40,150 nucleotides of DNA. It comes from a virus (taxonomy: Duplodnaviria > Heunggongvirae > Uroviricota > Caudoviricetes). Positions 1,754 through 3,873 of the stretch are shown here, piece by piece. The notes below the pieces were generated by a model. The model searched no databases. It was given only the letters and a program-made list of their open reading frames with translations, and had not been told where the DNA came from. The position numbers and the translations under genes are program-made. Where the stretch lies: the IMG/VR virus record IMGVR_UViG_2718218304_000002; one strand, written 5' to 3'. The first letter of the stretch is position 1. The number at the start of each line of letters is the position of its first letter.

Positions 1754-1825
1754 TGAAGTGGTTTACTGAATTTGGCCACCTGAACAGAGGTGATATGCTC
1801 ACCTCAGAACAACACAGGTGCCATA

Positions 1826-2128
1826 ATGAAAAAAAGAAATTTCAGCGCAGAGTTTAAACGCGAATCCGCTCAACTGGTCGTTGACCAGAATTACACCGTG
1901 GCAGATGCAGCCAGCGCTATGGATGTCGGCCTTTCCACAATGACGCGATGGGTGAAACAATTACGTGATGAGCGGCAGGGAAAAACACCAAAAGCCTCCC
2001 CCATTACCCCGGAACAAATTGAAATCCGTGAGCTCAGGAAAAAGCTACAACGTATTGAAATGGAAAATGAAATATTAAAAAAGGCTACCGCGCTCTTGAT
2101 GTCAGACTCCCTGAACAGTTCTCGATAA
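1826..2128 (+). CDS. IS911 OrfA (IS3-family transposase HTH protein)
   Basis: Translation [21 protein letters not shown]... matches recalled IS911 OrfA; ATG at 1826 inside ORF 1790..2128. Confidence 0.85.
2077..2083 (+). promoter_or_regulatory. IS911 programmed -1 ribosomal frameshift heptamer A-AAA-AAG
   Basis: AAAAAAG at 2077-2083 read as AAA AAG (K K) in the orfA frame near its 3' end, with orfB in the -1 frame downstream; the known IS911 OrfAB slippery site. Mirror copy at 3544-3550 on the - strand. Confidence 0.6.
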
Positions 2129-2154
2129 TCGGGAAACTCAGGGCGCGTTATCCT

Positions 2155-2813
2155 GTGGCCACTCTCTGCCATGTGTTCGGGGTCCATCGCAGCAGCTACA
2201 AATACTGGAAAAACCGTCCTGAAAAGCCAGACGGCAGACGGGCTGTATTACGCAGCCAGGTACTTGAACTGCATGGCATCAGCCACGGCTCTGCCGGAGC
2301 AAGAAGCATCGCCACAATGGCAACCCAGAGAGGCTACCAGATGGGGCGCTGGCTTGCTGGCAGACTCATGAAAGAGCTGGGGCTGGTCAGCTGTCAGCAG
2401 CCGACTTACCGGTATAAACGTGGTGGTCATGAACATGTTGCTATCCCTAACTACCTTGAACGGCAGTTCGCCGTGACCGAGCCAAATCAGGTGTGGTGCG
2501 GTGATGTGACCTATATCTGGACGGGTAAGCGCTGGGCGTACCTCGCCGTTGTTCTCGACCTGTTCGCAAGAAAACCAGTGGGCTGGGCCATGTCGTTCTC
2601 GCCGGACAGCAGGCTTACCATGAAAGCACTGGAAATGGCATGGGAAACCCGTGGTAAGCCCGTCGGGGTGATGTTCCACAGCGATCAAGGCAGTCATTAT
2701 ACGAGCAGGCAGTTCCGGCAGTTACTGTGGAGATACCGGATCAGGCAGAGTATGAGTCGGCGTGGAAACTGCTGGGATAACAGCCCAATGGAGCGCTTCT
2801 TCAGGAGTCTGAA
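2155..2813 (+). pseudogene. IS911 OrfB (DDE integrase domain), 3'-truncated at palindrome centre
   Basis: ORF 2155..2826 has an rve-type DDE core but runs through the palindrome centre (2813/2814) into reverse-complemented sequence, ending ...FFRSLNSDS; the native C-terminus is absent. Confidence 0.8.
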
Positions 2814-3472
2814 TTCAGACTCCTGAAGAAGCGCTCCATTGGGCTGTTATCCCAGCAGTTTCCACGCCGACTCATACTCTGCCTGATCCGGTATCTCCAC
2901 AGTAACTGCCGGAACTGCCTGCTCGTATAATGACTGCCTTGATCGCTGTGGAACATCACCCCGACGGGCTTACCACGGGTTTCCCATGCCATTTCCAGTG
3001 CTTTCATGGTAAGCCTGCTGTCCGGCGAGAACGACATGGCCCAGCCCACTGGTTTTCTTGCGAACAGGTCGAGAACAACGGCGAGGTACGCCCAGCGCTT
3101 ACCCGTCCAGATATAGGTCACATCACCGCACCACACCTGATTTGGCTCGGTCACGGCGAACTGCCGTTCAAGGTAGTTAGGGATAGCAACATGTTCATGA
3201 CCACCACGTTTATACCGGTAAGTCGGCTGCTGACAGCTGACCAGCCCCAGCTCTTTCATGAGTCTGCCAGCAAGCCAGCGCCCCATCTGGTAGCCTCTCT
3301 GGGTTGCCATTGTGGCGATGCTTCTTGCTCCGGCAGAGCCGTGGCTGATGCCATGCAGTTCAAGTACCTGGCTGCGTAATACAGCCCGTCTGCCGTCTGG
3401 CTTTTCAGGACGGTTTTTCCAGTATTTGTAGCTGCTGCGATGGACCCCGAACACATGGCAGAGAGTGGCCAC
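2814..3472 (-). pseudogene. IS911 OrfB, second copy, 3'-truncated at palindrome centre
   Basis: Protein identical to ORF 2155..2826 (mirror ORF 2801..3472). Confidence 0.8.
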
Positions 3473-3498
3473 AGGATAACGCGCCCTGAGTTTCCCGA

Positions 3499-3801
3499 TT
3501 ATCGAGAACTGTTCAGGGAGTCTGACATCAAGAGCGCGGTAGCCTTTTTTAATATTTCATTTTCCATTTCAATACGTTGTAGCTTTTTCCTGAGCTCACG
3601 GATTTCAATTTGTTCCGGGGTAATGGGGGAGGCTTTTGGTGTTTTTCCCTGCCGCTCATCACGTAATTGTTTCACCCATCGCGTCATTGTGGAAAGGCCG
3701 ACATCCATAGCGCTGGCTGCATCTGCCACGGTGTAATTCTGGTCAACGACCAGTTGAGCGGATTCGCGTTTAAACTCTGCGCTGAAATTTCTTTTTTTCA
3801 T
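3499..3801 (-). CDS. IS911 OrfA, second copy
   Basis: Protein identical to the 1826..2128 product (ORF 3499..3837). Confidence 0.85.
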
Positions 3802-3873
3802 TATGGCACCTGTGTTGTTCTGAGGTGAGCATATCACCTCTGTTCAGGTGGCCAAATTCAGTAAACCACTTCA

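What the first reader, a model, noticed from the sequence alone, without database searches (positions are those of the whole stretch)
1754..3873. Perfect 2.1-kb spacerless palindrome built from two 3'-truncated IS911 copies joined tail-to-tail
The two arms are exact reverse complements and meet at GAATTC (2811-2816). Each arm carries the IS911 left terminus, orfA, the A6G frameshift site and orfB cut short at the same internal point, so neither copy has a right end or a complete transposase. Long perfect palindromes are unstable in wild-type E. coli (SbcCD-dependent), so this is either an assembly or library fold-back artefact, or a real hairpin-mediated inverted duplication, which would be a recombination hotspot. 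The arms are flanked by different truncated tail genes (tfa on the left, a tail-gene remnant on the right), so the junction coincides with loss of the tail-fibre genes.
Basis: seen in the sequence. Interest (0 to 1): 0.6.

Follow-up and report, generated by a model that had tools for sequence, protein, structure and literature searches.

The report
Fold-back assembly artefact in ISEc52
The perfect 2.1-kb palindrome is really in the deposited sequence, but it is almost certainly a long-read assembly error in one E. coli genome record (strain D4) rather than a structure the bacterium carries, so it is of interest mainly as a database quality flag.

Summary
In detail: window 1754-2813 and 2814-3873 are exact reverse complements (1,060 nt each, no spacer). 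Each arm is positions 1-1060 of a 1,250-bp IS3-family element that RefSeq names ISEc52 (an IS911 relative). The window is the Rac prophage of E. coli D4 (NZ_CP010143.1), and the structure occurs in 1 of 5,426 complete E. coli genomes and nowhere else searched. D9, a near-clonal sister isolate (1 substitution in about 42 kb), has at this locus tfaR'-full ISEc52-56 bp-ISEc22-portal'. The D4 record leaves that path at IS position 1060, folds back, follows a copy of a different locus (thrW prophage: ISEc52-tape measure-circularization-baseplate'-ISEc22) and re-enters Rac inside the shared ISEc22. The same block is used a third time in D4, where it links a plasmid that is free in D9 into rrnE, next to a 40.5-kb inverted duplicate of the ribosomal-protein region. 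D4 has intact sbcCD, and a 460-bp perfect chromosomal palindrome is lethal when SbcCD is expressed (PMC4245961). A snap-back at the native 8-bp inverted repeat does not give the observed centre. Best explanation: an assembly artefact, probably seeded by a fold-back chimeric long read (about 0.85). The tail-gene loss predates the palindrome. Interest is low.

The parts
551..1141 (+). pinR (Rac prophage recombinase); left-hand context, colinear with D9 and with ordinary Rac remnants
1239..1753 (-). tfaR' (tail fibre assembly gene) lacking its first 60 bp (20 codons); the annotated ORF borrows a GTG start inside the IS (up to 1802)
   Evidence: Homology to intact tfaR (576 bp) stops at window 1753/1754.
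1754..2813 (+). Left arm: ISEc52 positions 1-1060 (IRL, orfA 1826-2128, A6G slippery site 2077-2083, orfB' from about 2155). Colinear with the D9 Rac ISEc52 copy.
   Evidence: Pfam PF01527 and PF00665
2811..2816 (.). Palindrome centre, GAATTC, created by the join CTGAA|TTCAG. It is not a native EcoRI site of the IS (native sequence CTGAAGAACG).
2814..3873 (-). Right arm: ISEc52 positions 1060-1 in reverse complement. Colinear with the thrW-locus ISEc52 copy.
3874..4048 (+). Last 34 nt of a tail-assembly-chaperone gene plus the intergenic region of the thrW prophage (the ISEc52 insertion site at thrW)
   Evidence: aligns from L008 9826; chaperone gene 9590-9859
4049..7704 (+). Tape measure (4049-5884), DNA circularization protein (5945-7273) and the N-terminal part of a baseplate gene (7270-7704). 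This is an extra copy of the thrW-prophage segment, identical to D4 thrW and to D9 thrW.
7706..10159 (-). ISEc22 (IS66 family), the shared repeat in which the path returns from thrW-type to Rac-type sequence. It carries two private single-base indels (8362, 10117), and the first frameshifts the transposase.
10160..11261 (-). Rac portal gene remnant (DUF4055), truncated by ISEc22. From here the window is colinear with D9 Rac.

Best explanation
The palindrome is an assembly artefact in the deposited D4 chromosome and not a structure present in the cells. The true D4 Rac locus is most likely the same as in the near-clonal strain D9: tfaR' - full-length ISEc52 - 56 bp - ISEc22 - portal'. In the D4 record the path enters that ISEc52 from its left end and turns back on itself at position 1060 with no spacer. 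That is the signature of a long read in which both strands of one molecule were read consecutively (missed SMRTbell adapter or polymerase strand jump). Because the reverse-complemented IS is identical to every other ISEc52 copy, the layout then continued out of the IS left end into the thrW-prophage copy (tape measure, circularization, baseplate'). It returned to Rac through the 2.45-kb ISEc22 repeat that both loci share. Shown here: the colinearity breakpoints, the uniqueness of the structure, the sister strain's structure, the other anomalies in the same record, and intact sbcCD. Inferred: the read-level mechanism and the sequencing platform. The platform inference rests only on the indel-only differences between D4 and D9.
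For: (1) The structure is unique. It occurs in 1 of 5,426 complete E. coli genomes. The junction-spanning ORF exists only in the D4 record among all indexed gene positions. The 28-nt centre is absent from genome contigs and metagenome contigs.
(2) D9 differs from D4 by 1 substitution in about 42 kb and shares a plasmid A of identical length, 114,159 bp. D9 nevertheless has an ordinary full ISEc52 next to ISEc22 at this locus.
(3) Window 1-2813 matches D9 Rac, 2814-10159 matches the thrW locus, and 7706 onward matches D9 Rac. The thrW locus is still intact in D4, so the block is an extra copy bounded by two repeats.
(4) The same block appears a third time in D4, where it bridges gspL'-ISEc52 to plasmid DNA.
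(5) The D4 record contains about 134 kb of plasmid DNA that is a free 78.6-kb plasmid B in D9. It is joined to rrnE by a non-homologous join between the rrn spacer and internal IS26 sequence.
(6) The D4 record also holds a 40.5-kb inverted duplicate of the gsp-S10-spc-alpha-rrnD region and a 7.6-kb perfect inverted repeat in the tet(B) region. Plasmid DNA, block and inverted duplicate together account for the 184-kb size excess over D9.
(7) Both D4-D9 indels in 18.9 kb of the right-hand alignment fall inside the 2.45-kb ISEc22 next to the block and are private to that copy. This suggests poor consensus support there.
(8) sbcC and sbcD are intact, and a 460-bp perfect chromosomal palindrome kills rec+ E. 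coli when SbcCD is expressed (PMC4245961).
(9) No homology-guided or microhomology-primed event gives a zero-loop join: a snap-back at the native inverted repeat predicts a different centre, and there is no reciprocal product.
(10) Missed adapters, polymerase strand jumps and chimeric reads are recognised PacBio read artefacts that impede assembly (PMC6304105).
Against: No raw reads were available, so the artefact is inferred and not observed. The sequencing platform and assembler of CP010143 could not be established. Placing the block neatly between ISEc52 and ISEc22 at Rac needs two mis-threadings (a fold-back in ISEc52 and a copy switch in ISEc22), which is somewhat contrived. The SbcCD lethality experiment used arabinose-induced SbcCD, not native expression. 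The D9 assembly is itself imperfect: it has indel errors, and its plasmid B record closes at a join between truncated IS4321 and truncated pgaA. It is therefore not a gold standard.
Confidence: 0.85

Rival explanations
1. The palindrome is real and heritable in D4. Two ISEc52 copies (Rac and a copy of the thrW block) broke at the same internal position and were joined head-to-head, or a hairpin-capped end was replicated. The join was combined with ectopic copying of the thrW block and resolved by homologous recombination in ISEc22.
For: The sequence is in a RefSeq 'complete genome' and both arms have distinct, sensible flanks. The break lies inside a native 8-bp inverted repeat (1044-1051/1056-1063), which could be a fragile site. 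E. coli can form inverted duplications at palindromes (PMC3315005).
Against: Homologous pairing cannot give a 1060|1060 inverted join, and a snap-back at the native repeat gives a different centre. The flanks differ, unlike a hairpin-replication product. The structure is absent from the near-clonal D9 and from every other data set searched. sbcCD is intact, and perfect palindromes of 460 bp are lethal with SbcCD. The inverted duplications described in PMC3315005 were seen only without SbcCD and RecA. The same record contains several other implausible joins.
Confidence: 0.07
2. It is an artefact of finishing and not of a chimeric read. Two contig ends that both stopped inside ISEc52 were concatenated (by hand or by a merging or circularisation tool), or a repeat-graph path was forced through the ISEc52 node forward and then in reverse.
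For: The record looks like a chain of unique segments stitched through repeats: rrn, IS26, ISEc22, ISEc52 and rrn at 4.64-4.82 Mb. The block is used three times. The join is blunt, with no overlap or spacer.
Against: Nothing explains why two independent contig ends would stop at exactly the same IS coordinate (1060) unless one molecule end defined both. No variant or branch point at position 1060 was seen among the ISEc52 copies compared.
Confidence: 0.2
3. It is an in vitro cloning product: two identical EcoRI fragments ligated head-to-head, giving a palindrome centred on GAATTC.
For: The centre is GAATTC, the classical signature of head-to-head EcoRI ligation.
Against: Native ISEc52 has no EcoRI site there: it reads CTGAAGAACG in the D9 Rac and D9 thrW copies. 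Every spacerless palindrome has a palindromic hexamer at its centre, so GAATTC is a 1-in-64 coincidence.
Confidence: 0.01

Closest known systems
Fold-back (palindromic) chimeric long reads: missed SMRTbell adapters and polymerase strand jumps in PacBio data, and inverted chimeras after whole-genome amplification
   Same: A spacerless inverted junction at an arbitrary coordinate. One assembly only. It occurs in a record with other chimeric joins and with the indel-type consensus errors typical of noisy long reads.
   Different: A simple fold-back read would carry the same flank on both sides. Here the second arm leads into a different locus, so an additional repeat-mediated mis-layout through ISEc52 and ISEc22 has to be assumed. 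Read-level proof is missing.
Engineered perfect and interrupted palindromes in the E. coli chromosome (Leach laboratory; PMC4245961, PMC3315005)
   Same: A long inverted repeat in the chromosome of an sbcCD+ rec+ E. coli; a perfect centre with no spacer.
   Different: The engineered 460-bp perfect palindrome could be kept only with SbcCD repressed. The D4 palindrome is 2,120 bp in a strain with intact sbcCD, which is why it is unlikely to exist in vivo.
Natural tail-to-tail pairs of full-length ISEc52 (for example in SYNB1934, razor3 and ST131 MB1341)
   Same: Two ISEc52 copies in inverted orientation with left ends outward.
   Different: Those pairs are complete copies (both ends present) separated by a spacer whose implied length (from the match spans) is about 90-350 bp or more. 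They are interrupted palindromes produced by ordinary transposition. None is truncated or spacerless.
IS911 / IS3-family insertion sequences
   Same: Each arm has the IS3-family layout: terminal inverted repeat starting TGAAGTGG, orfA with an HTH domain, an A6G -1 frameshift site and an orfB rve/DDE domain.
   Different: RefSeq annotates the element as ISEc52. Each arm lacks the last 190 bp, including IRR and the C-terminal end of OrfB, so neither arm is a transposable unit.

Membership tests
IS3 family, ISEc52 (IS911-like) insertion sequence | Two terminal inverted repeats (IRL and IRR) | tested here: not met
   Each arm has IRL only. The native element is 1,250 bp and the arms stop at position 1060, so IRR is missing. 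The window holds no other ISEc52 fragment.
IS3 family, ISEc52 (IS911-like) insertion sequence | orfA (HTH) and orfB (rve/DDE) linked by an A6G -1 frameshift site | tested here: met
   orfA lies at 1826-2128 (PF01527), A AAA AAG at 2077-2083, and orfB' has PF00665. orfB is cut about 60 codons before its end.
IS3 family, ISEc52 (IS911-like) insertion sequence | Sequence identity to the named element | tested here: met
   99.7-100% identity to copies that RefSeq (PGAP) annotates as ISEc52. Elements annotated as IS911 family match only the orfB part, at about 96-97%.
In vivo hairpin-mediated inverted duplication (palindrome-centred; snap-back or TID type) | Centre lies at a pre-existing short inverted repeat, leaving its loop as a small central asymmetry | tested here: not met
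   The native repeat is at 1044-1051/1056-1063 with loop GAGT. The predicted product CAGGAGTCTGAAGAAGCGC differs from the observed CTGAA|TTCAG.
In vivo hairpin-mediated inverted duplication (palindrome-centred; snap-back or TID type) | The inverted duplication continues into the same flanking DNA on both sides | tested here: not met
   The left flank is Rac tfaR' and the right flank is the thrW-prophage tape-measure segment.
In vivo hairpin-mediated inverted duplication (palindrome-centred; snap-back or TID type) | Permissive host (SbcCD absent or inactive) | tested here: not met
   sbcC (3,147 bp) and sbcD (1,203 bp) are annotated intact in D4. Expression was not tested.
Composite transposon bounded by inverted IS copies | Two complete IS copies flanking a cargo segment | tested here: not met
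   Both copies are truncated at position 1060 and abut with no cargo between them.
Long-read fold-back or chimeric assembly artefact | Structure confined to one assembly and absent from near-identical genomes | tested here: met
   1 of 5,426 genomes. D9, with 1 substitution in about 42 kb, lacks it. It is absent from the other collections searched.
Long-read fold-back or chimeric assembly artefact | Other non-homologous joins or repeat-bounded duplications in the same assembly | tested here: met
   An rrn-spacer|internal-IS26 join, plasmid B DNA inside rrnE, a 40.5-kb inverted duplicate, the block used three times, and a 7.6-kb perfect inverted repeat.
Long-read fold-back or chimeric assembly artefact | Raw reads fail to span the junction into both unique flanks | not testable with these tools
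   No read data are accessible, and no publication was found for CP010143.

The most novel reading that the evidence does not exclude
The 2.1-kb spacerless palindrome is real in D4. It would then be a natural sbcCD+ E. coli isolate stably carrying a perfect long palindrome, formed by a non-homologous head-to-head join of two ISEc52 copies during a multi-junction, template-switching rearrangement. That rearrangement would also have copied the thrW block and integrated plasmid B into rrnE. This would contradict the lethality of perfect palindromes reported for laboratory strains and would imply either a tolerance mechanism or a bacterial counterpart of complex replicative rearrangements.
Probability: 0.06. 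Interest if true: 0.7.

Novelty: not a real feature. Interest (0 to 1): 0.1.

Why it matters
As biology it most likely does not matter, because the cell probably has an ordinary ISEc52 next to ISEc22 at this site. It matters as a quality flag. RefSeq assembly GCF_001900655.1 (E. coli D4) appears to carry about 180 kb of mis-threaded sequence: a plasmid placed inside rrnE, a 40.5-kb inverted duplicate of the ribosomal-protein region, and a prophage block used three times. Such errors can mislead surveys of IS-mediated rearrangement, plasmid integration, gene copy number or palindromes. If the palindrome were real, it would challenge the finding that long perfect palindromes are lethal in sbcCD+ E. 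coli.

Tried and rejected
- EcoRI head-to-head ligation: rejected, because the native IS has no EcoRI site at the break.
- Snap-back priming at the native 8-bp inverted repeat: rejected, because the predicted centre differs from the observed one.
- Reciprocal inversion between two direct IS copies: rejected, because no complementary 2 x 190-bp palindrome exists in D4.
- Homologous recombination between ISEc52 copies: rejected on logic. It preserves the 1060-to-1061 continuity and always leaves complete IS copies.
- Composite transposon or transposase-made junction: rejected, because the join is 190 bp from the IS end.
- Searches for the junction elsewhere found nothing beyond D4: the exact junction ORF (223 aa: none; 169 aa: D4 only) and the 28-nt centre in genome and metagenome collections (none).
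- Searches for a publication or the sequencing method of CP010143/CP010152 and neighbouring accessions found nothing relevant.
- The search for the ancestral Rac junction in D4 showed it is absent. That fits both the artefact and the real-event models, so it does not discriminate.
- PMC4700564 was checked for PacBio palindrome artefacts and contained nothing relevant.

Full report
OBSERVATION. The finding is accurate as a description of the sequence. The repeat finder reports one inverted repeat in window 1-8000: arms 1754-2813 and 2814-3873, 1,060 nt each, 100% complementary, with 0 nt between them. A direct string comparison confirms it. The centre reads ...GGAGTCTGAA|TTCAGACTCC..., which gives GAATTC at 2811-2816. 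No other spacerless or near-spacerless palindrome with arms of 25 nt or more was found in about 370 kb of D4 and D9 sequence.

WHAT THE ARMS ARE. The window is the reverse complement of E. coli strain D4 (dog isolate), NZ_CP010143.1, at about 1,834,705-1,874,854. This region is the Rac prophage between ttcA/intR and ydfK. RefSeq annotates both arms as 'IS3-like element ISEc52 family transposase; frameshifted; incomplete; missing C-terminus'. A full copy from the sister strain D9 is 1,250 bp, and each arm equals its positions 1-1060. Each arm has:
- the left terminal repeat (TGAAGTGG...);
- orfA at 1826-2128 (PF01527);
- the A AAA AAG slippery site at 2077-2083;
- an orfB with an rve domain (PF00665) that runs across the centre and ends ...[12 protein letters not shown].
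Elements annotated as IS911 family match only the orfB part, at about 96-97%. 'IS911' is therefore right at the family level, but the element is ISEc52. In native copies the sequence continues CTGAA|GAACGAATGG. The GAATTC is thus made by the junction and is not a native EcoRI site.

WHERE THE TWO FLANKS COME FROM. Only 1 of 5,426 complete E. coli genomes carries the whole structure. A second dog isolate, D9 (NZ_CP010152.1), is near-clonal with D4: 1 substitution and a handful of single-base indels in about 42 kb of aligned chromosome, and a plasmid A of identical length, 114,159 bp.

In D9 the Rac locus reads pinR - tfaR' - full ISEc52 - 56 bp - ISEc22 - portal' - terL - terS - ... - trkG. In both D9 and D4 a different locus, next to thrW/proA, reads int' - full ISEc52 - (34 nt of a tail chaperone gene) - tape measure - DNA circularization - baseplate' - ISEc22 - baseplate'' ....

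BLAST of the window against these loci gives three results:
- window 1-2813 matches D9 Rac, up to IS position 1060;
- window 2814-10159 matches the thrW locus, from IS position 1060 in reverse complement to the far end of ISEc22;
- window 7706 onward matches D9 Rac again.
So relative to D9, the D4 record has replaced 'ISEc52 1061-1250 + 56 bp' with 'reverse-complemented ISEc52 1060-1 + 3.8 kb of thrW-prophage DNA'. It switches back inside the 2.45-kb ISEc22 that both loci share. The thrW locus itself is intact in D4, so this is an extra copy of that block.

It follows that the loss of Rac head and tail genes is older than the palindrome and independent of it, since D9 has the loss without the palindrome. 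tfaR lacks only its first 60 bp.

THE REST OF THE D4 RECORD. The tape-measure block occurs three times in D4 and once in D9. The third copy (record 4,773,363-4,780,809) links gspL'-ISEc52 to plasmid DNA through ISEc22. Working upstream from there:
- The record reads purH - 16S rRNA - about 20 nt of spacer - internal IS26 sequence (a non-homologous join).
- About 134 kb of plasmid DNA follows: floR, sil, sul3, a class 1 integron, stbA, parAB, repA, tet(B) twice and TEM-1.
- In D9 the same DNA is a free circular 78.6-kb plasmid B.
Downstream of the block, record 4,780,810-4,821,305 (gspL' to rrn) is an inverted duplicate of about 3,852,200-3,892,734. It contains the S10, spc and alpha ribosomal-protein operons and is identical apart from one indel. 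At the record wrap-around it merges through an rrn operon into yjaA. The tet(B) region also holds a 7,642-nt perfect inverted repeat with a 6.3-kb spacer that D9 lacks.

Plasmid DNA, block and duplicate together account for the 184-kb size difference between D4 and D9. This part of the record therefore looks like unique segments threaded repeatedly through repeats (rrn, IS26, ISEc22, ISEc52), with at least two joins that no homologous or transposase-mediated event would make.

CAN THE PALINDROME EXIST IN VIVO?
- sbcC and sbcD are annotated intact in D4.
- Azeroglu et al. (PMC4245961) showed that a 460-bp perfect palindrome in the E. coli chromosome kills recombination-proficient cells when SbcCD is expressed, because both sister chromosomes are cleaved. 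The same arms with a 20-bp spacer are tolerated. The D4 palindrome is 2,120 bp and has no spacer.
- Darmon et al. [quoted passage not shown]
- Natural tail-to-tail pairs of ISEc52 do exist (SYNB1934, razor3, MB1341), but they are full-length copies with spacers of about 90-350 bp or more (spacer lengths inferred from the match spans).

CAN A KNOWN MECHANISM MAKE THIS JOIN?
- Any homology-guided event (recombination, strand invasion, template switching between IS copies) keeps position 1060 followed by 1061. It cannot produce 1060 followed by the complement of 1060 (inference).
- A snap-back at the native 8-bp inverted repeat (1044-1051/1056-1063, loop GAGT) would give ...CAGGAGTCTGAAGAAGCGC..., with GAGT as a central asymmetry. 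The observed centre is different.
- A reciprocal exchange would leave a 2 x 190-bp palindrome of IS right ends. None is present in D4.
- The join is 190 bp from the IS end, so it is not a transposase product.
- What gives a zero-loop inverted join at an arbitrary coordinate is reading both strands of one duplex end consecutively. Missed adapters, polymerase strand jumps and chimeric reads are listed among the PacBio read artefacts that impede assembly (PMC6304105).
- The indel-only differences between D4 and D9 fit noisy long-read consensus. That includes two indels private to the ISEc22 copy next to the block, against none in the adjacent 16 kb. The platform could not be confirmed.

VERDICT. 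The best explanation (about 0.85) is an assembly artefact: a fold-back chimeric read, or less likely a finishing or concatenation step, created the turn at IS position 1060. Repeat-mediated mis-layout through ISEc52 and ISEc22 then inserted a copy of the thrW block. A real in vivo palindrome is not excluded (about 0.06-0.07). It would, however, require a non-homologous join at identical coordinates in two IS copies, survival of a perfect 2.1-kb palindrome in an sbcCD+ strain, and several further unusual rearrangements in a strain otherwise almost identical to D9. The decisive tests are read mapping across 2813/2814 and a tfaR'-to-portal' PCR (8.9 kb against about 4.26 kb). Interest is low, and the practical value is as a warning about this RefSeq record.

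Noticed in passing
NZ_CP010143.1 4,638,970-4,773,300 (loci L023, L022, L017): About 134 kb of MDR plasmid DNA (floR/ISCR2, sil operon, sul3, class 1 integron with dfrA12-aadA-cmlA, stbA, parAB, repA, tet(B) twice, TEM-1) sits inside the D4 chromosome record. It begins at a non-homologous join between the rrnE 16S-23S spacer and internal IS26 sequence. 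In the near-clonal D9 the same DNA is a free 78.6-kb plasmid B (CP010154).
   Followed up: partly
NZ_CP010143.1 4,780,810-4,821,305 versus about 3,852,200-3,892,734 (L017/L018 versus L020): A 40.5-kb inverted duplicate of gspL'-gspA/B-S10/spc/alpha operons-...-yrdA-rrn, identical apart from one indel, merges through an rrn operon into yjaA at the record wrap-around. D9 has a single copy.
   Followed up: partly
L017 1799-9440 and 15748-23389 (NZ_CP010143.1 about 4,746,800-4,768,400): A 7,642-nt 100% inverted repeat with a 6.3-kb spacer, plus a direct duplication of tetC-tet(B)-tetR-IS903, in the embedded plasmid DNA. D9 plasmid B has single copies. This may be another fold-back style assembly error.
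   Followed up: no
window 7706-10159 (positions 8362 and 10117): The ISEc22 copy next to the block has two private single-base indels, and one frameshifts the transposase. Both are absent from the four other ISEc22 copies compared in D4 and D9, while the adjacent 16 kb has no differences from D9.
   Followed up: yes
NZ_CP080246.1 4,003,787-4,006,379; NZ_CP176051.1 about 419,679-422,530; NZ_CP174453.1 about 4,355,635-4,357,840: Natural pairs of full-length ISEc52 in tail-to-tail orientation, with implied spacers of about 90-350 bp (long interrupted palindromes), occur in several unrelated complete genomes (SYNB1934, razor3, ST131 MB1341, and others).
   Followed up: no
NZ_CP010154.1 77,979-78,557 / 1-2,195 (L028, L025): The D9 plasmid B record closes its circle at a join between a truncated IS4321 and a truncated pgaA. 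In D4 the same truncated IS4321 is followed by ISEc22. The D9 plasmid record may therefore also be mis-circularised or be missing an ISEc22.
   Followed up: no
window about 10,160-40,150 (Rac prophage of D4 and D9): This Rac is much more complete than the K-12 remnant. It keeps terS, terL, part of the portal gene, a ParB-like gene, lysis genes, recET, racR and ydaSTUV. It also carries cargo genes (a DUF262 protein, a TPR protein, hok/gef) and an IS421 insertion.
   Followed up: no
NZ_CP010144.1 and NZ_CP010153.1 (L026, L027): D4 and D9 share a 114,159-bp phage-plasmid ('plasmid A') that encodes a full set of siphovirus-like structural genes together with metG, apbC and a type I restriction-modification system.
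   Followed up: no
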